Of a stretch of DNA of 64,000 nt, positions 1,361 to 54,477 are shown piece after piece. How positions within the stretch are numbered: position 1 is the first letter of the stretch; each line of letters opens with the position of its first letter. The translations under genes were made by a program, and so were the position numbers. This DNA comes from a virus. Taxonomy: Duplodnaviria > Caudoviricetes. The DNA is taken from positions 130-64,129 of IMG/VR virus record IMGVR_UViG_3300044541_000019. The stretch is one strand, 5' to 3'. Below the pieces are notes generated by a model that was given only the letters and a program-made list of their open reading frames with translations, did not search any database and was not told the DNA's origin.

Positions 1361-1479
1361 GGGTTGCGGGTGTCCTCTCCAATCGGTTGTGCCCGTTACT
1401 CATCCGCCGACGCGGCGAGTAGACACGCTCCCGGGTCAGGCCCAGCTATGGGACCCGGGAGCGATCCACAAGCGACGTA

Positions 1480-1869
1480 CTAGGCCGCTAGCGCCGCGCG
1501 CCAGCCTGCCGTCAGACCCTCCGGTGACCATGTGGGATCACCGTCGTCTGCCGCAGACCAATTGGCCATGAACCCGTGATTTCGAGTCCAGTCGCGACGC
1601 TCGCTGTAGCTGTCGTCATCACCAACCGCGCGGTTGAGTCCGGCACCGTACGGCGTGCCAAACTCAGTCACTTTCACGGCGTCGTCGTACCAGCCTTGCC
1701 CCTTGCTCACCTGGGCTAGGACGCAGCTGTAAGGGTCGTCGATGTCGAACGCATCGGGTGACAGGTCGACCTGCGCGCGCCATCCTGGCGCCTCACGGTT
1801 CAACCACTCGACACCCAGGGCAACTGCCTCGGTGCCGTTGGCGGGCTGTACCGCCGTTGTCTCATCCAT
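1480..1869 (-). CDS. hypothetical protein, 129 aa
   Basis: GTAGGGAGA RBS; globular composition (W..QVDL..FDI.D...CVLAQV). Confidence 0.75.
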   Translation of the reverse strand: MDETTAVQPANGTEAVALGVEWLNREAPGWRAQVDLSPDAFDIDDPYSCVLAQVSKGQGWYDDAVKVTEFGTPYGAGLNRAVGDDDSYSERRDWTRNHGFMANWSAADDGDPTWSPEGLTAGWRAALAA

Positions 1870-8650: not shown

Positions 8651-8949
8651 GAGATCCACTGTCGGAGATCGCCCGCAAGGCGATGTCCGTTACCGAGAAT
8701 CGGTGCCGGAAGCAGGGTCTGGACTTTGCTGAGGAACTTAACCGACTTGGGCTTCTGGCCACAGAACCTCGAATTCGAGAGATCCAGGTATCTGCATTAA
8801 AGAACATGTTGGCTCGCCTCGAAATGATGTCGGTTGCCGATCTCATGGAAGTACAACGGCGAGGCAACTCGAACCCTGGGACTCCAGCAGACCTGTACGT
8901 CAGTGTCTTGGGCTGGATCCACAACTACATCAACCATCTGACCACGTGA
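8647..8949 (+). CDS. hypothetical protein, 100 aa
   Basis: GTGA coupling with upstream stop. Confidence 0.65.
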   Translation: MRDPLSEIARKAMSVTENRCRKQGLDFAEELNRLGLLATEPRIREIQVSALKNMLARLEMMSVADLMEVQRRGNSNPGTPADLYVSVLGWIHNYINHLTT

Positions 8950-9476
8950 CATGTCCGTTCTCTTCTGTCCCTGTCGTGTCACTCCGACTACTCGGGCCTT
9001 TTCGAGTCACATCCCATCCATCCGACACATCGCGCCGTAGCGCATCAACTCCAAGCGACACCTCGCGCCGAATCATCTCATTTCAAACCGACGTGCCTCG
9101 TCAAAACCGGTCTACTCACGCCCATCCGACACACCTAGTCACTCCGGTTCCTCCCCCCTCCGACATGTCGAATCGCGCCCTTTCCTGTCTCGCCAATTCC
9201 GACTCACCGTCTCACATCGCCTCCATTTCATCCCGACTACCCATGTCGCGTCGCCACCCACTCCGATCCGACTAGCCGCTACTGGCCGTGTCCCTACCAG
9301 TCCGACTACGCACTTCATGTCCACTCCTATCCCCCCTATCCGCTACGACTCGTCTCAACTACCCCATTCAAGCCCGATCCGACAAGTCGACTCGTCTCGA
9401 TCTCATGTCTTCTCATCCCGACGACTCGTTTCAATTCGAACCCTGCCCGACGAGCCCATCCACTCCATCTCACTCC
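8947..9476 (+). ncRNA. pentamer-periodic array 1: 14 complete CGAC-terminated units of 29-43 nt plus a partial unit
   Basis: e.g. atg|tccgt|tctct|tctgt|ccctg|tcgtg|tcact|ccgac; tac|tcggg|ccttt|tcgag|tcaca|tccca|tccat|ccgac; intergenic. RNA status is inferred. Confidence 0.75.
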
Positions 9477-9491
9477 TAAGGAGGTTCCCCG

Positions 9492-10040
9492 GTGACAGCG
9501 TTAGAGATCCGCAAGCGGGACTTCGCCACCGACATGCGCAAGCTCATCGACAAGGAACGTTCAGGCAATGGCAGCTACAACGCCAGCGTTCTCGCTCATG
9601 AGATCGCTACCCGACTCCTCACCGAGGACCGGGAGCTGCTGTACGGCTGGCTCGAAGCGCACGCCGTGCCCACCATCCGTGCCGCGATCGTAGCCATCGA
9701 CGCCGCCACCAGGTCATACGCCCGGAAAGGCAACGTGACGTCCCTGTTCGCTGAAGCCGCGAGACAGGCCGAAGGTGGCAACCAGGAACCGCTGCGTCAG
9801 GGTTTCCTGCAGGCCGTGTACGTCATCAACAGCGACAACGACCGTAAGGCGCTCAAGGATATGACAGCTGCAGATGTCCTGTTCGTAGCAGCATCGTACG
9901 AGGACAGGGCGAAGTCAGCGATGCTTGAAGCAGCATTCCTGAGGGCTGTGGCCAAGAAGATTGGACACGGCCGTGTCGCGGACAAGTTCACTAACATCCA
10001 GTTGGCCGAACTGCATTTGCGACTCAAAGGCACAGACTAA
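9492..10040 (+). CDS. helical hypothetical protein, 182 aa, between arrays 1 and 2
   Basis: TAAGGAGG RBS; clean ORF. Confidence 0.85.
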   Translation: MTALEIRKRDFATDMRKLIDKERSGNGSYNASVLAHEIATRLLTEDRELLYGWLEAHAVPTIRAAIVAIDAATRSYARKGNVTSLFAEAARQAEGGNQEPLRQGFLQAVYVINSDNDRKALKDMTAADVLFVAASYEDRAKSAMLEAAFLRAVAKKIGHGRVADKFTNIQLAELHLRLKGTD

Positions 10041-10466
10041 CGACACCACAATCCGGTTCGGTTCTCCTCTCATCTTTCTGACACATCGAGTCAGGTCATG
10101 TCAGTTCGGATCCGTTCGACTCGTCAGCTCGTTGCTTCTTCTATCCATCCCGCCCGACTCGCCAGTTCCCCTTCTCCCTGCACGGCCCACATCCCATCGA
10201 CAGGACAGTCCTGCTCGGTGCTCTCCCAGTCTGCCCCGAACGACCGATCATCTCCTATTCCGCGCCCGTCCCTCCGACGATTCAATCCACCTCAGCTCGC
10301 AACCGACAGATCACGTCTGTCCCGTTCGACTTCTCATATCGTGCCTGTCCAGCTCGCCCCAATCGACAGATCCCGTCTACCCGAGTCAGCTCGCCCCAGG
10401 CGACATCTCGTGCCTTCTCTGTTCGAGTCCGACTTGCCCCCTCTGAACTGTTCTTCTCTATCCGAC
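10041..10466 (+). ncRNA. pentamer-periodic array 2: 12 units of 23-43 nt
   Basis: e.g. aca|tcgag|tcagg|tcatg|tcagt|tcgga|tccgt|tcgac; directly upstream of the RAMP gene. Confidence 0.75.
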
Positions 10467-10489
10467 CATCCACAAAGGAGTAACAAGAA

Positions 10490-11224
10490 ATGACTGACAC
10501 GCCGAAGCGCGTATTCAGTAGGTATGACAACGAGTCCTACAAGTTCCGCTTCGTTGCGGAGCTGTCCCTATCTACCATCGTTGGTGGCGTCCCCAGTGAC
10601 CCGAAGGTTGCTGAGGGCTGGCTGAAGTCCAAGCTGCAGGAAACCGATGACCGCATCCGCGAAATGGTCGCTGAGATCATGGTGGAGCGTGAGGTGGGCG
10701 TGGAAGAGGCCACTGAGATCGTCAACAGCCTGAAGAACCTCAACGGGTTCAAGCGCACCCCGGCCGGCGTCCTGTTCATTGAGGGACGTCAGGTCAAGGC
10801 CATGATCAAGGAAGCTGCCTCGATCGCGGTGGCGGCCAAAAAGGTCGAGATGACGGGCTGGGGATCCACGCGAAAGTGGCTGTCCAACTTCCTCCCGGAA
10901 CACGTATTCGTGCTGGAGGAGACGATCGAGCTGACCCAGCGCGACGAGGCCGGCAACCTGGTGACAGTGAAGACCCCCACTGGCATCAACCAGCAGTTCG
11001 TGCACACGCACCGAGGCTCCAGCATCCAGTACCAGGAGTTCGTACGTGACGCCGTGGTCACCTTCAACGTCATCTGCGATTGGCCCTTCACCACGAAGGA
11101 CTGGGCCATGATTCTCACCTCTGGGGAGAAGAATGGACTGGGTGCTAGTCGCTCTCAGGGTTATGGCACCTTCGGCGTCACTCGCTGGGATGCCGTTGAC
11201 CTGGAGGGAAAGAAGACCAAGTGA
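10490..11224 (+). CDS. solitary Cas7/RAMP-superfamily protein, 244 aa
   Basis: LFIEGRQVKAMIKEAA (equivalent of IPGSSLKG.LR) and C-terminal Gly-rich loop NGLGASRSQGYGTF; AAAGGAG RBS. Confidence 0.8.
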   Translation: MTDTPKRVFSRYDNESYKFRFVAELSLSTIVGGVPSDPKVAEGWLKSKLQETDDRIREMVAEIMVEREVGVEEATEIVNSLKNLNGFKRTPAGVLFIEGRQVKAMIKEAASIAVAAKKVEMTGWGSTRKWLSNFLPEHVFVLEETIELTQRDEAGNLVTVKTPTGINQQFVHTHRGSSIQYQEFVRDAVVTFNVICDWPFTTKDWAMILTSGEKNGLGASRSQGYGTFGVTRWDAVDLEGKKTK

Positions 11225-13463: not shown

Positions 13464-13645
13464 ATAAGACCCTCGTAGTTCTCGCTGTCGCTGGGGCGGC
13501 AGCAGCCGGCGGGTACATGTTCCGCAACGAGATCAAGGATGCGGCGCGGAAGGTGCAGCAGGATCTTGAGGTCAAGATCGCCGAATTCAGCCTCCTAGTC
13601 CCCGACAAGACCGACACCGGGTACGTTGAGACAGAGAACTTCTAG
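13460..13645 (+). CDS. small membrane-anchored protein, 61 aa
   Basis: ATGA coupling; N-terminal TM segment. Confidence 0.65.
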   Translation: MNKTLVVLAVAGAAAAGGYMFRNEIKDAARKVQQDLEVKIAEFSLLVPDKTDTGYVETENF

Positions 13646-13655
13646 AGACCCGAAG

Positions 13656-13687
13656 GTCCCAGCGCTCACGGGGGTGCTGGGACTTTT
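13656..13687 (+). terminator. intrinsic terminator preceding array 3
   Basis: GTCCCAGCGC...GTGCTGGGAC-TTTT. Confidence 0.7.
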
Positions 13688-13707
13688 GGCATGTGCTCGG
13701 CGTCAGG

Positions 13708-14091
13708 CCGACACGCGACCGTACACCTCGTACCTACTCTGTCCTCGCCATCTCGACAAACCCACACAGGCCGATCCGGTCCAGCTCTACTCGACTTACC
13801 GAATCAGTTTCCAGCCCCTCCCCATCCCATCCGACATGTCAACCTTGGTCATCTCCCATCGTTTCCGACAGACCCGCCCTGCCCGCACCCTGGTCACTGC
13901 CGACTCGTCCACTCAGTCCCAACTCCGATCCCATCCATACGACAAGGCAGGTCTCCTCCTGTCGTTCCTAATCACCTCCATCGACCAACCGAATCGAATC
14001 CGATCCCTACCGACATGTCGTCTCACTTCCGTGCCGCTCTACCCACGTCCGACTACCCACCTCCGATCCTCTCGGCTCGCTTCCGCCCAAC
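13708..14091 (+). ncRNA. pentamer-periodic array 3: 10 units of 29-42 nt
   Basis: e.g. aaa|cccac|acagg|ccgat|ccggt|ccagc|tctac|tcgac. Confidence 0.75.
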
Positions 14092-14110
14092 TATCCACAA
14101 AGGAGAACCA

Positions 14111-14476
14111 ATGAAGCCCGATCCCTATGAGCACGAACCAGCGGTTGAGGTTGACCCGGTCACATTTGCCGCCTACATGGAGGCGGCATCAAACGTCCTC
14201 GCCTGGCAGAAGGAAGCCGACCGTCTCAAGAGGATGCTCGCGGAGCAGATGGGGGACGCGCACGCTGGCCTCGTGGACGGGCGCAAGCTCATCACCAACC
14301 GACCTGGTGACAGGTGGGCTGAAGCTCGGATGATCAAAGACTACCCGGAGCTGACCTCGCACTACATCAAGCCCGTCTACCAGGACAAGTTCGACTTCTC
14401 CATGTTCCAGGCCGCGCACCCTGACATCGTGGAGAAGTACCGCGTACGCAGCTTCAGGAGCCTGGCCGATGTCTGA
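14111..14476 (+). CDS. protein resembling the C-terminal region of YqaJ-type phage recombinases, without a nuclease domain
   Basis: LKRMLAEQMGDA..GLVDG....T and FD...FQAAHPDIVEKY...SF motifs; AAAGGAG RBS. Confidence 0.55.
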   Translation: MKPDPYEHEPAVEVDPVTFAAYMEAASNVLAWQKEADRLKRMLAEQMGDAHAGLVDGRKLITNRPGDRWAEARMIKDYPELTSHYIKPVYQDKFDFSMFQAAHPDIVEKYRVRSFRSLADV

Positions 14477-16723: not shown

Positions 16724-16797
16724 TGCGGAGTGGGGCAGAGGTCAGCCCACCGGGCTCATAACCCGCGAGGACGCTGGTTCGAATCCAGCCTCCGCTA
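16724..16797 (+). tRNA. tRNA-Met(CAT), initiator-like
   Basis: Cloverleaf; 1:72 mismatch (T-T); three consecutive G-C pairs at the base of the anticodon stem; GGTTCGAATCC T-arm; no encoded CCA. Confidence 0.85.
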
Positions 16798-16879
16798 CTT
16801 GTTTGATCTTCCTGTTCCCCAGGAAGTGGTGGAGACGGTGGATCGACGCTAGGCTACGCAAAACGTCGACCCGCCCCAG

Positions 16880-26252: not shown

Positions 26253-29200
26253 GGATCCACGGGGGTGGGCGTATCAGTGACCTCCACGATGGCTACCGGA
26301 GCCATGTATAGGCGCCGGTCACGTTGCACATCCCCGTTAGGTACGGAGACGTTGGCGAACCATCGGTTCCCGTCCTCGTCTCGCAGGCAGATGTAGGGGA
26401 CGTTCACCCAAGCCATGTTGCGCAGGCCGGTGAAGTCCTCCAGCGTTTCTGGGGAGATGGCTGCGGCCTGGACTAGGAGGTTGCGACTGAAGTTGGTGCC
26501 GCCACGCTCCGTGGGACGGAAGGCGGTGACGTAGTCCCGGCCGTACATGGTCTGGAAGGTTTGGCCAGCAGCCTCGGGGAAGTTGAAGCTCTCGTGAACC
26601 TCTCCTTCCCAGCCGAGGCAGTAGGCCAGGTTACTGGCTCCCGACTGCACGGAGTTGGTGGTGAAGATCCAGACGTGATCGTTGGCTCCGACACTGGTGG
26701 CAGTGACGCCGGGAGCTGCGATCGTGCTGGAGATGGTGGCGGACCATGGACCTGCGAACTCCAGGACGTTCACCTTGCGGATCCGGTAGCTGGTCAGGAT
26801 CGCCACTCTGGCTTCGTAGTCGTTGAAGGTGAGGAGACCTTGGTTCGTCGCCTTCATGATCGTCTTCCAGGTGGGGTCCACTGTGTCCATGCGCTGGATC
26901 TCGGTGTACCCCAGGTCGTAGTTAGACACCGTGATGTTGTCGTACGAGATCGTCATGGCGCCAGCACCCGAAACCGATCGAGTGACAACAGTGCCAGCGT
27001 TCGGGTTAGCCACAGTGACTACCTCAAGGAGCCAGTGGTCTGGTTCAGGGTCGCCGTCCAACCAGGCCTTGCCCTTGAAACTGGAACCGAACAACTGCAG
27101 TCTCAGCTTCACTCTGGTGCCAGGAATGTACCGACCAGCGAACACGACGTTGCCTAGTTGCGTGTGCACGCCACCAACCGCACTGGACAGGAACAACTTC
27201 ACTGTTCCATCGGCAGGGAAGTTGACCTCTCCGTACAGGTGATCGCCGGCTCCGTTGTCCCGAAGCCCGATAGAGCCCCAGTGATCCAGGGTGGTAGCCG
27301 CTGTGTCCGACCAGATCTCCGCATAGGCGTTGACATTTCGCGCTGAGAACGAGGCCAGTCGCGTGATGCGGTAAGAGCCGGTGGTGGACAGTAGGACATT
27401 GCCAACGGAACCGTTCACAGAGAAGTCCGTAGCCGATCCACCAGTTGCCGTCCAGGCCTGCCCGCCCGTGGACGTACCCCAGCCACTGGCTACGACCCTG
27501 GAGAACACGTCCGTCATCTGGTTCACGGTGTCGAGGCCCCAGGCCAGCTGGTTGTACGCAATCTGGCTAGGAATGAAGGCAGGGTTGATGCCACAGTTCA
27601 GACCGATGCCAGACACAGCCTGGTTCAGCTGCGTGATACCGAACCCAGACACAGCCGCAGAGTCCTGGCTGAACATGAGTACCGCGTCAGCGCTCATGTC
27701 ATCAGTTGGCTGGAGGATAGTTAGGTCGTCGAACACCATGGACTGCGGCAACGTGTTGGTGTTGCCTGCAGTGATGAATGATGCAATGCGGATTGATCCA
27801 GCACCCGGTAGAGCCCCATCGAACACAGTGAGAAGCCAAGCTGTTGGTTCAGGCGTACCTCCAGTAGTAAGCCAGCCCTTCGCTTGCAAGGTGTTGCCAA
27901 TGATCCTGAACCTAACAGTGACGCTGTTAGGCGGGACTACGCCGGGGATGACTGTGGGACCAACAAGGCCTGTTGCCACCCCGGCAACGTTTTTACCAAT
28001 AGTCAAGGTGATGGTGTTGGCAGTGGTGCGCGTAACCGTTAAACGGTAATGATTGTTTACATCGATATACCTAACATCGTGGAATGACACAAAGCTCTGG
28101 GTTAGTGGTGCTGCTCCCAAGGTGCTGTCGTCAGCGACGCGGTAGTCGATGTTTGCCTGAGGGACGATACCCAGCACGATTGAGTCGGTTGTGACCGTAG
28201 TGGTATGCACGTGCCGTGCGTCGGAACCGGTGGTGGTGAATTCAGATGTCGTGCCAGTAGCAATGGTCCAGACCTGACCGGTATCTGCGGTACCCCAGCC
28301 ATTGGCTGTGACTCTGGAGAACGTGTCTTGTATCGCGGCGTAGTTCGGCTGAGTGCCTTGGTCTGACAGCGTCCCCGGATTCCAGGTCATGTTGATAGTG
28401 GCACCGGCGTTCGGCTGGCCATAGGTTGCGTTGTACAACTGGCCAGGGAAGGTAGCCAGGGAGGAGGTGTTCCCTGGTGTCCCCGAGAGCGCCACGGCAG
28501 CAGCCCCCAGTACTTCCCATCGGTTGGCCTTCAGCTCAGAGGCAGATGACCAAATCCACTGTGGATTGGTACCAGTGCCCATGGTCGGAGCTGTTGGGAA
28601 CCTGAGGGTTACTTCCTTCCAGCCATCGATGATCGGCTGGAGGGCGTCCCACTGAGCGGGGGTGATGCTGACGTTCATCCCTGCCCCGGAGATGCTCGGC
28701 GAGGACAAGGTGAGCGGGACTGTCGTGTCACCGAATCGGCGGGCGTAGAACCGCACCTGAGGATAGGTGGATGAAGTCAGCCCGACATCGTAGATGTCTT
28801 GGGCGGCAGTGAAAGCGCCGTAGACCTGAGCAACAACCTGGGTCCCGTAGGCGTGGACCTCGGTCAGTGGCCCACTAGATGTATGCACGGACAGCTGCGG
28901 CAGGATGGGAGTCTGAATAGCTGTAAATGTCTCTCCCTCTGCCGTGTCGTCCATGGGAAACGGCAAGTTTACTTGCACACCGGGCTGGTTGGGCATCGCG
29001 TACAACTCACGGAGCGCGTTCAAGGAAGAGAAATCAGAGGTGGTTGCGGCCAGGTTGTCGTTGTTGCCGCCCACGTCAGCCGATGACAGAGTCACCGTGT
29101 AATTCCCGGCAGGGATGACGGGGTTTGCCGTGTACGACAGATCCCTGAGGGTTAGTGCGTTGACTCCGAGGAGAGTGTCCTGTCCGAATGAGGCAGAGGA

Positions 29201-36977: not shown

Positions 36978-38687
36978 CTAGCAGGTGACCTGGACCTGTG
37001 CGGCGGTGTTACCGTTCGGGCAGATGTTGACGGTGTAAACCCGACTCAGCGGGCACATTCGCACCATCTTCCAACCGGTCTCCGTGAACAGGTGAGTTAC
37101 CTGGTTCGTGGCTAGCTTGGTGGAGTCGTAGACGCTGTTCAGGGTGATGACGTCGTTGACGGCGCGCACCCACGTACCCGCTGGGTAGATCAGGAACTGC
37201 AGCGACACTGGCAGCTCCGTCAGTGGGAACGCGGAACCAGCGGAGCCCGACACCGAACCACCCGAGAAGGCGTCCTGCCAGTCGTACACGTACTGGGCGC
37301 GGATACCGCGTGCAGCCATGGCCGCACTGATCTCCGAGTCGGCCAGCGTGATTGTCTTGCTGTAGTCCCCGCCGTTACGACGGACCCAGTCAGCACGCAT
37401 CTGGGCAAGAGTCCAGAACGGCAGCACTACTTCTAGGGTTGCCGAACGCTGGAGGCGCAGACGGTACTTGATGTCGACTGCTGCCATCTCCAGTGCCGAG
37501 AGCACCTGAGCCACAACCGAGACACCGGAGGTCCATGGCTGGAAACCGGTCAGGGTAACGGCCACCGAGTCAGCAACCATCGCTGCGATCTGCTCACGGT
37601 TCACCTGGTGCGCGGACGCCGCCATGGCGCCACGGGCGAAGGTGGCCGTGAACTCCGGGTAGCCCCGGATGGAGAGGATGTTGCCGGTGAGGCAGATACC
37701 AGTGACACCAAGCCGGTCATCCACGAACGGCGGGCACGGGATTTCCAGGCAGGTCTTCGTGGTGCCGGCGGCAACCTGCGCCTCAGTGAGGTTGAAGAAG
37801 CCAGTGCCGGCGCCGAAGATGTAGCTGAAGTCGATGCCCTGGTTGTGGCGGATACCGCCACGGCGGGCCTGAACTTCAGGCGCATCCAGCAGACCGTCCG
37901 TGGTGATCTGGAGACAGATGTCGTAGTCGGTTTCCGACGGTGCACACCAGCCAGCGGCAGCAACCAGGGAGTCACGTCCTGGGTCGGTGGCTGCGAGTTC
38001 CTTGCGACGTAGCTCGGACGATGCGATCAGCGATCCACCTGGGAGGCGCTTCTCGTTGGCGACTGCCATGATCTTGGCGTAGTCGTTGTCGTCCATGTTG
38101 ACGCAGTACTCGTCCGGGTAGTCACGGACCATCTTCGCGACCGGGTAGTGGATCGGACCAGTACCGACTGGACCGGAAGCGCCACCGTGGCCAGCACTCC
38201 GGGCGATGAACGCCTTCGCCACATCGAGCATGGAGTCGAACTTGTGACCGGCTTCGTAGTCCGGTACACCAGCGGCAGCGATCAGGGTTGCGTATCCCTG
38301 CCGGTTGGCTGGGATAACCGTGGTGCCGTCCTTGTTGATGATGTCGGCGACAGTCACCTTGATGACCTTGTCGTCCTCGTTGATGGTCGCGGTGGCCGTG
38401 GCGGACGCGGTCACCGGCTCTGGCTCTACGACTGGCTCCGGGTCTGGGTCAGGCTCGTTGAGCGCTGCGAAACGGTCAGCGCGCTCGGTACGTCCCTGAA
38501 TCTCGGCAGCCACGTCGTACTTGTAGAACTGCTTCAGGGCGGCCAGCTCATCCAGCTGGTCATCCGTGATGGAGGTCGCGTCGACCGTGCTCATCATGGA
38601 GGTGTATTCAGTCTCTGCCTCTACCCGCTTCGCCTCCAGGGCGGTGAGCGTGAAGACAGTCAGGTCTTCGGGGATTTCAAAAAGCAT
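36978..38687 (-). CDS. major capsid protein (569 aa, with N-terminal scaffold-like segment)
   Basis: LVAAAGWCAPSET.YD, RGGI, K.C.EIPCP, GYPE. Confidence 0.85.
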   Translation of the reverse strand: MLFEIPEDLTVFTLTALEAKRVEAETEYTSMMSTVDATSITDDQLDELAALKQFYKYDVAAEIQGRTERADRFAALNEPDPDPEPVVEPEPVTASATATATINEDDKVIKVTVADIINKDGTTVIPANRQGYATLIAAAGVPDYEAGHKFDSMLDVAKAFIARSAGHGGASGPVGTGPIHYPVAKMVRDYPDEYCVNMDDNDYAKIMAVANEKRLPGGSLIASSELRRKELAATDPGRDSLVAAAGWCAPSETDYDICLQITTDGLLDAPEVQARRGGIRHNQGIDFSYIFGAGTGFFNLTEAQVAAGTTKTCLEIPCPPFVDDRLGVTGICLTGNILSIRGYPEFTATFARGAMAASAHQVNREQIAAMVADSVAVTLTGFQPWTSGVSVVAQVLSALEMAAVDIKYRLRLQRSATLEVVLPFWTLAQMRADWVRRNGGDYSKTITLADSEISAAMAARGIRAQYVYDWQDAFSGGSVSGSAGSAFPLTELPVSLQFLIYPAGTWVRAVNDVITLNSVYDSTKLATNQVTHLFTETGWKMVRMCPLSRVYTVNICPNGNTAAQVQVTC

Positions 38688-38765
38688 TGTGGGCCTCTCA
38701 ACGGAAGAGTTGTCTCCCGGTGCAGGCCCACAGCTACAGCCACCGATCTAAGGGGATGGTAACAC

Positions 38766-38921
38766 CTACACCCTGGAATACGTCGTTCCTAGCGGACCCA
38801 GGGTCTGCTCTACTCGGGCGGCGTGTTCCCCAACCACCACCTTCTTCTGTCCGTCTGGGTACTTCACCTCAAACTGAGGCTCGGGCACTACTTCCGTCTG
38901 GCCGTTGCATCCGCATCCCAT
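38766..38921 (-). CDS. small MGCGC-type protein, 51 aa
   Basis: ATG overlapping upstream stop (TAATG). Confidence 0.65.
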   Translation of the reverse strand: MGCGCNGQTEVVPEPQFEVKYPDGQKKVVVGEHAARVEQTLGPLGTTYSRV

Positions 38922-50512: not shown

Positions 50513-50803
50513 CTACTCCCTGTCTGCCATACGGAGTGCGATGGCCGCCGCCATGGACCCGGCGGGGATTGACAGAGCGGCAAGTACCCACTGATTGTGC
50601 CAGAAAACGGACACAGGCATCAAAACTGAGAACCACATGGACATACACCAGGGAGCGCAGTGAATGAGTCGAGTAGCCATGTGGGTGGGGCCGAATCGTT
50701 TAACGACTGCCTTCCTGAACCACGTGGTGATCTCATCCTCCGCGATCAGACGCGCGAGGCGGGCCGCTGCGAGGGCAGCGACAACCATGGTCAGGACCAG
50801 CAC
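50513..50803 (-). CDS. DUF1360-like membrane protein
   Basis: RL.RLI..D.IT...R and L.HC.PWC.S.W. Confidence 0.7.
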   Translation of the reverse strand: MLVLTMVVAALAAARLARLIAEDEITTWFRKAVVKRFGPTHMATRLIHCAPWCMSMWFSVLMPVSVFWHNQWVLAALSIPAGSMAAAIALRMADRE

Positions 50804-50896
50804 GCTTACTACTCTAATGGGATCAAGAGCACAAGGGGTAGATGGCTGATCAGATGGTTCATTATGGACAGAGCACTAGGGAGGGGTAGGGTGGCA

Positions 50897-51259
50897 GAGA
50901 CAACGCAGCACGTATCACATCGACGTACCTGCTCTTCTCTCGTCAGTTCTTCACCGACAACTCATGACGACTCGTTCCCTCTCGACTGCACAGCTCTTGC
51001 CTTATCCACGCTCCACCGACAGGCCTCAACGCGCCTACTCCGCTCACCATCACGTCCGACGAGCCCATTCATCCCCTGCCACGTCCGACTAATCACCTCG
51101 AATCTGAGCACATCGATCCCTACCCGACGAATCGCGTCGATCCCTCACGCACCCGACGTCCCACGTCAAGTCACTTCATGTCCGACTACGCTGCTTAGCC
51201 CATGTCATGTCACATCACCACCGACTCTCCATCCCTCCTCCGCTCCGCTCTTGTCCGAC
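50897..51259 (+). ncRNA. pentamer-periodic array 4: 11 units of 23-40 nt, antisense to the late operon
   Basis: e.g. gtc|ccacg|tcaag|tcact|tcatg|t|ccgac; upstream AGGGAGGGG-TAGGGT -10-like element at 50887. Confidence 0.75.
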
Positions 51260-52696
51260 TCACCAATGCGGTTGAAGCTGGGACAGATCGTAGAAGTCCT
51301 GAGAAAGTGACCACTCGTGCTGGGAGGGCTGCGCAACCCGCATCACGCGCCGCTCTCCCCGCATGAGGTGCAAGGCGCCATGTACCAGGGCGTCCATCCG
51401 GTCCGGTGATTCCCTTGTGGATTCAGGATCGAAGATCACCATTTCGGATTCGAGTTCCTCGAACTCGCCCACCATGTGCAGTCGTTTCTGTTCACAGCGC
51501 ATGGCTACTGGTTCAGCTCTTGTACGTTTGCCATGTTTCGCGTGCACCGGATACATAGAAGGAGAGCTATGTTCGGGGAAGAGTCCCAGGCTTATGGATT
51601 CCTTGAAGGCATCCTGGAGTACTTCCGCGAGGTACCTTTTGCCGAGGTTCTCTTCATAGACAAGGGTGTCGGCATCCCATTTGGCCATTGCTCGCCAAGC
51701 TGCCAGGGCTGCTGTTCGACCACTCTGTTCCACCGAGGCATCTTCAAGTACGTAGAGATCGTTGTTCACTGTACGAGCGACGACGACGATCCCGAACAGG
51801 TCGTCTTCTCCAGTCAGGTTCGGGTCAACCCCAACCACCGTGGCGACAATGTCATCGGGTACCTCGGTAACCCGACCGTTGACTATGTCCATCCGTTTGA
51901 ATAGGCCGCCGCCACCCAGCTCCAGTAGCTTCCCGTACAACTCCTGCTGTCCGAGCGCGGAGTCTGCGTACCTGTTCTTCAGCTCCCGCAACACGTGCTG
52001 AGACAGGTTGGTGGAGTTGTCGAACGTGGACCCCCCCATGATGTGGATGGTGCCATCGTCCCGCTTCACCCACTCTTGCAGCAGTTTGATGGGCTTCGGG
52101 GTGGTGGTGGCGAAGCAGCGAGGATGGTCGCCCACCAGGTCGGTACGCAAGGAAGGCAGGATCCCCTCATACCAGCTTTCATACGACTTAGGCCATTTAC
52201 AGATCTCGTCTACCCAGGCGCCGGCCGCGTTGTAACCGCGACCGACATCCTCGTCGTCTGCACCCTCCGCATAGATCCGGGACCCATCTGGGAACAGCAC
52301 CATGGGTCGCGGGGACTGCTTGTACCTGAAGTCGACGCCACGTCTGGTAAGGACGCGCAGGAGTCCTGCTGGTCCTTCCATGCAAATGGTGCGAGTGTCA
52401 GCAAGCGTCTCGCCAATGAGGAGCCATTCCGTGGGCTGACCGTTTCGGTCAAATGGGTGCTGGAGCACTTTCTCCACGAGCCACTCTGCCCCTGCTCTGC
52501 TCTTTCCCCAGCCTCGGCCAGCCAGTGCCAGTGCAACCAGCCAGTCTCCTGGTGGGGGCACCTGCTCTGGACGGGCGGTCCACCACCATTCCCCTCGGTT
52601 GATCTCCTCCAGCAGGTGTACCGGGAGTGAGGCGAGCCAGCTGTCCCGCTCATGTACGGGGAGCTTGGCTACCCGTTGTGCGAGAGATAGACCCAT
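51260..52696 (-). CDS. terL: terminase large subunit
   Basis: Walker A AGRGWGKS; Walker B WVDE; TTTPK; nuclease VGVDP; SPDRMDALV. Confidence 0.95.
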   Translation of the reverse strand: MGLSLAQRVAKLPVHERDSWLASLPVHLLEEINRGEWWWTARPEQVPPPGDWLVALALAGRGWGKSRAGAEWLVEKVLQHPFDRNGQPTEWLLIGETLADTRTICMEGPAGLLRVLTRRGVDFRYKQSPRPMVLFPDGSRIYAEGADDEDVGRGYNAAGAWVDEICKWPKSYESWYEGILPSLRTDLVGDHPRCFATTTPKPIKLLQEWVKRDDGTIHIMGGSTFDNSTNLSQHVLRELKNRYADSALGQQELYGKLLELGGGGLFKRMDIVNGRVTEVPDDIVATVVGVDPNLTGEDDLFGIVVVARTVNNDLYVLEDASVEQSGRTAALAAWRAMAKWDADTLVYEENLGKRYLAEVLQDAFKESISLGLFPEHSSPSMYPVHAKHGKRTRAEPVAMRCEQKRLHMVGEFEELESEMVIFDPESTRESPDRMDALVHGALHLMRGERRVMRVAQPSQHEWSLSQDFYDLSQLQPHW

Positions 52697-53085: not shown

Positions 53086-53158
53086 GGACCCGTAGCTCAG
53101 CTGGAAGAGCAGTGGCCTCTTAAGCCAACGGTCGTAGGTTCAAGTCCTACTGGGTCCA
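53086..53158 (+). tRNA. tRNA-Lys(CTT)
   Basis: Cloverleaf; anticodon loop CT-CTT-AA; GGTTCAAGTCC T-arm; no encoded CCA. Confidence 0.85.
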
Positions 53159-53159
53159 C

Positions 53160-53229
53160 GGGTCCGTAGCTTAACTGGCAGAGTCCGGCATTCTCGCCGG
53201 GGATGTGGGTTCGAATCCCACGGGGTCCA
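53160..53229 (+). tRNA. atypical tRNA-like gene with 6-nt anticodon loop (ATTCTC); identity unresolved
   Basis: TAGCTTAACTGGCAGAGT D-arm; CCGGC/GCCGG stem; GTGGG-TTCGAAT-CCCAC T-arm; weak acceptor stem. Confidence 0.55.
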
Positions 53230-53230
53230 C

Positions 53231-54406: not shown

Positions 54407-54477
54407 TGTCATGTTGCCCAATGGCAGGGCAACGGCCTATGGAGCCGTGGATCTGGGTTCGATTCCCAGCCTGACAA
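54407..54477 (+). tRNA. tRNA-like gene with ATG anticodon (His-type) and one acceptor-stem mismatch
   Basis: TGCCC/GGGCA D-stem; ACGGC-CTATGGA-GCCGT; CTGGG-TTCGATT-CCCAG. Confidence 0.6.

What the first reader, a model, noticed from the sequence alone, without database searches (positions are those of the whole stretch)
8947..11224. Solitary Cas7/RAMP gene with pentamer-coded non-coding arrays: candidate new phage RNA-guided system
Seen: a 244-aa protein with RAMP/Cas7 hallmarks (FIEGRQVKAMIKEAA, G-loop GLGASRSQGYGTF). It is preceded by two intergenic arrays, with two more at 13708 and 50897. Each unit is NNN + (YC-NNN)n + (C/N)CGAC. The C at pentamer position 2 is nearly invariant (a few exceptions such as ttcta, cttgg, ttagc) and the other positions vary, so units are not copies of one another. 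No Cas5/6/8/10, Cas1/2 or conventional CRISPR repeats were recognised. Known: Cas7 subunits polymerise along crRNA with a fixed step (6 nt, one base flipped out). Inference: each protomer grips a YC anchor in a 5-nt step and displays NNN for gapped pairing with a DNA or RNA target, giving about 47 guides of 12-24 variable nt. This resembles my recollection of recently reported phage VIPR systems (RAMP protein plus GGY/NN 5-nt periodic RNAs), but the code here (YC/NNN with a CCGAC delimiter) differs. Alternative: decoy or anti-CRISPR RNAs.
Basis: partly seen in the sequence, partly recalled or inferred. Interest (0 to 1): 0.96.

Follow-up and report, generated by a model that had tools for sequence, protein, structure and literature searches.

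The report
Actinophage VIPR system, C-anchored guides
A complete 64-kb phage of actinobacteria carries a VIPR-type RNA-guided system, a kind first described in 2026: a lone Cas7-like protein, a conserved helper gene and 47 short guide units in five-base steps, whose fixed letters are pyrimidine-C instead of the published G-G-pyrimidine.

Summary
Four non-coding arrays hold 47 units of five-base steps. C is at 92% of one position, a pyrimidine at 84% of the position before it, and the other three are near uniform. The 244-aa protein folds as a Cas7/Csm3-type RAMP. Its family profile aligns with the Vipr family of phage SUSP1 (hhalign 92.8%, E 4e-7).

The trio of 182-aa gene, array and RAMP recurs in relatives. 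48 of 51 IMG/VR loci show arrays, almost always on the RAMP strand.

This is a VIPR system, a kind published in 2026 preprints, not a new class. This scan has met VIPR systems before on other DNA.

In an all-against-all search, only "two bases after the C pair, one target base skipped" beat controls (15 perfect hits against 1-2). One relative's guide spells the PKVAEGWLK codons of rival RAMP genes, this window's included. Another spells a rival terminase Walker A motif. The code is therefore N-Y-C/NN, with each unit opened by GAC.

Two things stay open. The RNA strand is about 85% the gene strand; the opposite strand would read GRN/NN, close to the published NNNGG variant. No target was found for this phage's own guides.

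The parts
8950..9451 (+). Guide array 1: 15 units. It starts right after the stop codon of the upstream gene and ends about 40 nt before the 182-aa gene.
   Evidence: Unit parse.
9492..10040 (+). Conserved 182-aa accessory gene in the vap-like position. Mostly helical with one small beta-hairpin; function unknown.
   Evidence: A homolog lies directly upstream of the RAMP in 36 of 51 loci. AF2 pLDDT 88. No informative fold match. No Pfam, NCBIfam or PADLOC hit. Not similar to SUSP1 vap1.
10045..10466 (+). Guide array 2: 11 units between the accessory gene and the ribosome-binding site of the RAMP gene.
10490..11224 (+). vipr-like gene: a 244-aa single-domain RAMP with G-loop GLGASRSQGYG.
   Evidence: AF2 pLDDT 79. 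Foldseek top hits are type VII Cas7 and Csm3, E 7e-8 to 1e-4. hhalign to the Vipr profile gives 92.8%, E 4e-7. Weak PADLOC Csm4 hit over the G-loop, E 0.012.
10603..10626 (-). Site inside the window's own RAMP gene (KVAEGWLK codons) that matches 16 of 16 guide letters of a unit in another phage's array (L024).
13713..14053 (+). Guide array 3: 10 units, about 2.5 kb downstream of the RAMP gene. A partial unit and a ribosome-binding site follow, up to 14100.
50864..50892 (+). Promoter-like ATGGAC-N17-TAGGGT, 33 nt upstream of array 4.
   Evidence: TAGGGT, mostly within GGTAGGGT, is kept in 5 of 6 related phages and a TTGGAC-type first hexamer in 3 of them, while the arrays differ.
50925..51259 (+). 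Guide array 4: 11 units, antisense to its neighbours. These are the terminase large subunit gene (51260-52696, -) and a small gene (50513-50803, -) that precedes the portal gene.

Best explanation
This is a VIPR-type RNA-guided system of an actinobacterial phage.

Proposed mechanism:
- The arrays are transcribed on the gene strand. Arrays 1-3 ride on the early operon; array 4 has its own promoter.
- The transcript yields short guides of the form 5'-GAC-NN-(NYC-NN)n-NYC.
- One copy of the 244-aa Vipr-like RAMP binds each five-base step. It holds the N-Y-C letters and presents the two letters after the C.
- The filament reads double-stranded DNA two bases at a time with one target base skipped. 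The skipped base falls on the codon wobble position.
- Bound genes of rival phages are silenced.

Shown here:
- the RAMP fold and the profile-level homology to Vipr;
- the family-wide link of RAMP, 182-aa gene and co-oriented arrays;
- much faster turnover of arrays than of genes;
- a two-letter, one-skip signal in the relatives' guides.

Inferred:
- which strand is the RNA;
- processing at GAC;
- filament assembly;
- DNA rather than RNA as the target;
- silencing as the outcome;
- any role of the 182-aa protein.
For: Protein:
- Fold search gives Cas7/Csm3 as top hits.
- The family profile (A3) against the profile of SUSP1 Vipr homologs (A2) gives 92.8%, E 4e-7 over 159 columns, with the G-loops aligned.
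- SUSP1's own vrRNAs lie on the vipr strand.

Arrays and the gene:
- In 51 IMG/VR loci, YC runs within 2.5 kb of the RAMP hold 2186 pentamers on its strand and 188 on the other.
- 48 of 51 loci show arrays.
- 36 of 51 loci have the 182-aa homolog just upstream.
- Prophage copies lie in Nocardiopsis, Streptomyces, Actinomadura and other actinobacteria.

Turnover:
- The nearest relative (98% aa RAMP, genes 95% nt) shares no identical unit with the window's arrays 1 and 2.

Target rule:
- N1N2 plus one skipped base gives 15 perfect hits against 1-2 in controls. Six other two-letter rules are at control level.
- The L024 guide matches 16 of 16 letters on PKVAEGWLK codons in 12 rival RAMP genes. 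Its own gene has 2 mismatches.
- The L058 guide matches 18 of 18 letters on the Walker A codons of a rival terminase large subunit.
- Without the L024 guide, perfect hits in the class 'antisense, third letter on wobble' number 7 against 2.4 in controls.

Strand:
- 63 arrays are co-oriented with both neighbouring genes; 5 are antisense to both.
- A conserved promoter-like site precedes array 4.
Against: - No target was found for any of this phage's own 47 guides, in 1.4 Mb of related phage DNA, in IMG/VR exact scans or in 401 actinobacterial genomes.
- The target-rule signal rests mainly on two guides from relatives. The 12 hits of the first are homologous genes, not independent events.
- Guides of 5-8 steps carry only 10-16 informative letters. 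Five-step guides hit 1.4 Mb about 40 times by chance.
- The G-contacting residues of SUSP1 Vipr (D177, W178, R138) are not kept. That fits a changed anchor but gives no positive evidence for C recognition.
- There are no transcription or binding data.
- The opposite strand would read GRN/NN, closer to the published GGY/NN.
Confidence: 0.8

Rival explanations
1. Same system, but the guide RNA comes from the opposite strand. It would read 5'-(GRN-NN)n-GTC, or GGN-NN in distant relatives. That is the canonical GGY/NN code with a relaxed third letter, matching the 'NNNGG' variant named in the first VIPR preprint.
For: - NN|NYC|NN is the exact reverse complement of NN|GRN|NN, so the paired positions found fit both strands.
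- Distant loci use CCNNN, the reverse complement of NNNGG (paper 10.64898/2026.04.26.720920, section 20).
- Array 4 lies in the sense direction of the terL-portal block on that strand.
Against: - 63 arrays sit co-oriented between genes on the YC strand; only 5 are antisense to both neighbours.
- Arrays run from a stop codon to the next ribosome-binding site, which leaves no room for antisense promoters.
- A conserved + strand promoter-like site precedes array 4.
- SUSP1 vrRNAs lie on the vipr strand.
- The G-contact residues are not conserved.
- C-ending anchors (GAC/NN, CAC/NN) are already reported (10.64898/2026.10.21.760802).
Confidence: 0.13
2. The arrays are decoy or sponge RNAs that soak up a rival's Vipr or a host CRISPR complex, rather than guides for the phage's own RAMP.
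For: The October 2026 preprint (10.64898/2026.10.15.759431) describes stand-alone vrRNAs that redirect a rival's VIPR. Array 4 stands far from the RAMP gene.
Against: - The arrays are tied to their own RAMP gene in 48 of 51 loci.
- The anchor letters shift from TC to CC across more distant relatives of the RAMP.
- Guides in relatives spell rival genes.
Confidence: 0.03
3. The arrays act as DNA, for example as protein-binding iterons or recombination sites spaced by CCGAC, or they encode Ser/Pro-rich peptides.
For: CCGAC recurs every 29-43 bp. Long ORFs run through the arrays (8946-9275, 9961-10446, 13626-14114, 50660-51310).
Against: - A five-base rhythm that resets at each unit does not fit a triplet reading frame.
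- Unit spacings follow 5n-1 or 5n-2, not the DNA helical repeat.
- Units share no sequence beyond the anchors.
- The arrays change almost completely between phages whose genes are 95% identical.
Confidence: 0.02

Closest known systems
VIPR systems (Vipr + vap + vrRNA); best studied is type II of Escherichia phage SUSP1 (bioRxiv 10.64898/2026.04.26.720920 and .720927)
   Same: - Phage-borne solitary single-domain RAMP with a G-loop, related at profile level.
- A small accessory gene next to it.
- Guide genes on the same strand, in five-base steps of three held and two displayed letters.
- Target read two letters at a time with one skipped, the skip falling on the wobble position.
- Guides aimed at rival phage genes, including rival vipr genes.
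   Different: - The anchor is N-Y-C (or C-C) instead of G-G-Y.
- Guides have 5-8 steps instead of 9-16.
- There is no structured 3' tail; units abut and each opens with GAC.
- 47 guides sit in four arrays, one of them 40 kb away with its own promoter.
- The accessory protein is unrelated to vap1.
- The RAMP is about 50 residues longer.
- The G-contact residues D177, W178 and R138 are replaced by A, S and Q.
Published VIPR variants: 'staggered' tail-less arrays and NNNGG/YNNNG/NNNNG repeats (same preprint, fig. S17-S18, Methods), and non-canonical GAC/NN, CAC/NN, WGT/NN, TGH/NN arrays (bioRxiv 10.64898/2026.10.21.760802)
   Same: - Abutting guides in which one ends where the next begins.
- Anchors other than GGY, some ending in C.
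- NNNGG is the reverse complement of the CCNNN seen in distant relatives of this locus.
   Different: - The accessible text names no N-Y-C/NN unit, no GAC-opened short guides and no actinophage clade.
- I could not see the figures or tables, so I cannot tell whether this clade is one of the seven published types.
CRISPR type III/VII Cas7 (Csm3, Cas7 of type VII)
   Same: Best structural matches of the 244-aa protein: RRM core, G-loop and thumb.
   Different: - No CRISPR repeats. No Cas5, Cas6 or Cas10 partner was recognised, though the window's other ORFs were not screened for cas genes here.
- Five-base rather than six-base step.
- No Pfam RAMP hit.

Membership tests
VIPR | Solitary single-domain RAMP (RRM core, G-loop, thumb) outside a CRISPR locus | tested here: met
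   Foldseek top hits are Cas7/Csm3. No CRISPR-like repeats in the window. No Pfam RAMP hit. The window's other ORFs were not screened for cas genes.
VIPR | Sequence relationship to Vipr proteins | tested here: met
   hhalign of family profile A3 against a profile of 35 SUSP1-Vipr homologs gives probability 92.8%, E 4e-7, over 159 columns. The single-sequence comparison was not significant.
VIPR | Five-base tandem guide units next to the gene, with fixed and hypervariable positions | tested here: met
VIPR | GGY as the fixed trinucleotide (canonical types) | tested here: not met
   The gene strand reads N-Y-C and the opposite strand G-R-N. Non-GGY variants are accepted in the literature, so this does not exclude membership.
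VIPR | Target read as NN plus one skipped base | tested here: met
   15 perfect hits against 1-2 in controls for this rule only. The skipped base falls on the wobble position. This rests on guides of relatives, not of this window.
VIPR | Structured invariant 3' tail on each vrRNA (type II) | tested here: not met
   Units abut, separated only by (C)GAC. No structure beyond shuffled controls. This resembles the published 'staggered' arrays.
VIPR | Accessory vap gene | tested here: inconclusive
   A conserved 182-aa gene is present in 36 of 51 loci. It is not similar to SUSP1 vap1 and has no informative fold match.
VIPR | RNA transcribed, processed and bound by the protein; DNA binding and silencing | not testable with these tools
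   No expression or binding data.
CRISPR-Cas class 1 | Repeat-spacer array with adaptation and multi-subunit effector genes | tested here: not met
   No repeats. Only one RAMP gene was recognised. The genome is a complete 64-kb phage.

The most novel reading that the evidence does not exclude
The guide RNA is the pyrimidine-rich gene strand. A large actinophage clade of Vipr proteins (more than 760 homologs) would then hold N-Y-C or C-C rather than G-G-Y, which means a switch of base specificity in the RAMP pocket with D177/W178/R138 replaced. In that case the G-rich reading of such arrays ('NNNGG') in the first VIPR paper would be the wrong strand. The consistent antisense orientation of the matched guides could further mean that these short guides act on mRNA or prefer the coding strand.
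Probability: 0.4. Interest if true: 0.65.

Novelty: new variant of a known kind. Interest (0 to 1): 0.5.

Why it matters
VIPR is a months-old class of RNA-guided DNA recognition, and only GGY/NN systems have been studied at the bench. This locus matters in four ways.

- **Plastic code.** It belongs to a large actinophage clade in which the same protein scaffold seems to use a pyrimidine-C anchor and very short, tail-less guides. If so, the held letters of the code are more flexible than the solved structures suggest.
- **Strand question.** It raises a concrete, testable question about which strand the published 'NNNGG' variants come from.
- **Predicted conflict.** Within the family, one phage's guide is aimed at the vipr gene of twelve others, this phage included. 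Another is aimed at a rival terminase Walker A motif.
- **Test system.** It points to a deposited phage, Mae-JY09, in which these points could be tested.

It is not a new class of system.

Tried and rejected
- **Fourier scan.** A 200-nt period-5 scan showed nothing, because the phase resets at each unit.
- **Database hits for the RAMP.** Pfam, PHROGs and NCBIfam gave nothing. A profile search of PDB sequences gave nothing useful. No VIPR chain appeared among the PDB hits.
- **Phage collection.** Megablast of the locus found no match. tblastn found only Mae-JY09.
- **182-aa protein.** Foldseek and VIA-align gave only generic helical matches with Z at most 5. A PDB profile search gave nothing.
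- **Target rules rejected.** All three variable letters with skips 0-4 failed: contiguous pairing showed only a weak excess and skip 2 gave only self-hits. N2N3, N1N3 and target periods 2 and 4 were at control level.
- **Targets of the window's own guides.** Not found anywhere searched: the local 1.4-Mb set was at control level, three exact 24-mer scans of IMG/VR gave 0 hits, and one guide pattern gave 1 hit against 3 control hits in 401 actinomycete genomes.
- **Composite guides.** Neighbouring units do not match neighbouring target segments.
- **Folding energy as a strand test.** Neither strand differs from shuffles, with z of 0.37 and 0.10.
- **Rfam.** No family is found in the arrays, so no hammerhead spacers.

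Full report
**What is there.**
The window is almost the whole of a 64,129-bp IMG/VR virus record rated 100% complete.

Four non-coding stretches lie at 8950-9451, 10045-10466, 13713-14053 and 50925-51259. Split after every CGAC, they give 47 units.
- Unit lengths fall mostly in two series, 29/34/39 and 33/38/43.
- 36 units parse as NNN(YCNNN)n YC(C)GAC.
- Over 215 pentamers, the fifth position is C in 92% and the fourth is a pyrimidine in 84% (T 55%, C 29%). The other three are close to uniform.
- Units are not copies of one another.
- No Rfam family matches the arrays.

**The protein.**
ORF 10490-11224 has no Pfam, PHROG or NCBIfam match.
- A model built on 54 homologs (pLDDT 79) finds type VII Cas7 and Csm3 as best matches, with E from 7e-8 to 1e-4.
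- PADLOC gives a weak Csm4 hit over the G-loop.
- The family is large: 763 proteins at E of 0.001 or better, nearly all from metagenomes.

**Relation to VIPR.**
VIPR systems were published in 2026 (10.64898/2026.04.26.720920 and .720927). They consist of a lone RAMP (Vipr), an accessory vap gene and vrRNAs built of GGY/NN pentamers. These read DNA two letters at a time with one base skipped.

I fetched phiSUSP1 (KT454805). Its vipr gene is at 28474-29061 on the minus strand, with H17, R138, D177, W178 and R179 as in the paper. Its GGYNN vrRNAs lie on the same strand as vipr.

A profile of this window's family against a profile of 35 SUSP1-Vipr homologs gives probability 92.8% and E 4e-7 over 159 columns, with the G-loops aligned. 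The guanine-contact residues D177, W178 and R138 align to A, S and Q.

**Family-wide anatomy.**
- In 51 IMG/VR loci, runs of at least five YC pentamers within 2.5 kb of the RAMP hold 2186 pentamers on its strand and 188 on the other.
- 48 loci show arrays, 46 of them on the RAMP strand and mostly just upstream.
- More distant relatives use CCNNN, still with CCGAC between units.
- A homolog of the 182-aa gene (9492-10040) sits directly upstream in 36 of 51 loci. It is helical and has no informative fold match.
- Prophage copies lie in Nocardiopsis, Streptomyces, Streptosporangium, Actinomadura and other actinobacteria. The host is therefore probably an actinomycete.
- The nearest relative (RAMP 98% aa, genes 95% nt) shares no identical unit with the window's arrays 1 and 2. 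Arrays turn over far faster than genes.

**The code.**
I parsed 417 distinct guides from the window, 62 loci and five whole related genomes. I searched them against 1.43 Mb of the same DNA with the arrays masked.
- Rules that use all three variable letters stayed near control level. Contiguous pairing showed only a weak excess, and skip 2 found only the guides themselves.
- Taking only the two letters after the C, with one target base skipped, guides of seven or more steps gave 15 perfect hits. Shuffled-order controls gave 1-2.
- Six other two-letter rules were at control level.

Twelve of the 15 hits come from one guide in locus L024. It spells the first two letters of the PKVAEGWLK codons in the RAMP genes of 12 other phages, including this window at 10603-10626. 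L024's own gene reads QNVAEGWLR and has two mismatches.

A nine-step guide of L058 matches 18 of 18 letters on the RGPHGLGK (Walker A) codons of the terminase large subunit of L013.

With the L024 guide left out, perfect hits in the class 'antisense to the gene, third letter on wobble' number 7 against 2.4 in controls. All other classes are at or below control.

The unit is therefore N-Y-C/NN, the same three-held, two-shown layout as GGY/NN. The C of GAC lies five bases before the next unit's first anchor C, so GAC reads as that unit's opening anchor.

**Strand.**
NN|NYC|NN is the reverse complement of NN|GRN|NN, so target searches cannot tell the strand. Four lines favour the gene strand.
- 63 arrays are co-oriented with both neighbouring genes and only 5 are antisense to both.
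- Arrays run from a stop codon to the next ribosome-binding site.
- Array 4 is antisense to terL and to the small gene before portal. It is preceded by ATGGAC-N17-TAGGGT at 50864-50892, whose TAGGGT hexamer is conserved in five of six related phages whose arrays differ.
- SUSP1's vrRNAs lie on the vipr strand.

I put the gene strand at about 85%.

The other reading, GRN/NN or GGN/NN, would equal the 'NNNGG' variant listed in the first preprint's Methods. A second preprint reports C-ending anchors such as GAC/NN and CAC/NN.

**Open points.**
- No target was found for this phage's own guides.
- With 10-16 informative letters per guide, specificity is unexplained.
- The figures and tables of the preprints are not held. 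I cannot say whether this clade is already one of the seven types.

**Verdict.**
This is a real VIPR-type system. It is a new variant of a known kind, not a new class. This scan has noted VIPR systems on other DNA before, including non-GGY anchors.

Noticed in passing
window 10603-10626 (-): The window's own RAMP gene is a perfect 16-of-16 match to a guide in another phage's array (L024, unit at 9943). This phage's system is therefore itself a predicted target of a rival.
   Followed up: yes
L001 (PP395641.1, record about 38460-38870): Microcystis phage Mae-JY09 is a deposited phage. It carries a 31%-identical RAMP homolog directly after a 180-aa gene, then a CC/CCGAC pentamer array ending in a strong hairpin. 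The stretch read is 72.7% G+C, which is odd for a Microcystis phage.
   Followed up: partly
window 50513-50803 (-): A 96-aa ORF, hydrophobic in parts and possibly a membrane protein, lies between array 4 and the portal gene. A conserved TACTCTAATGG block just upstream (reverse strand TAGAGT) looks like its leftward promoter, divergent from the array promoter.
   Followed up: partly
window 1433-1510, 16724-16798, 53086-53230, 54407-54477: Five tRNA-like genes: Thr, Met, Lys, one odd with a two-base anticodon call, and His. Two are adjacent at 53086-53230.
   Followed up: no
L047 3-269 and 2110-2429: This is the one locus whose arrays lie only on the strand opposite the RAMP gene and flank it. 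The downstream array is co-oriented with the neighbouring minus-strand genes.
   Followed up: partly
L052 10529-12500; L010, L012, L054: Some relatives carry very large arrays, up to about 2 kb and 270 pentamers.
   Followed up: no
window 13655-13690 (+): A hairpin followed by ACTTTTGG lies just upstream of array 3, after a stop codon. If it terminates transcription, array 3 would need read-through or a promoter that I did not find.
   Followed up: no
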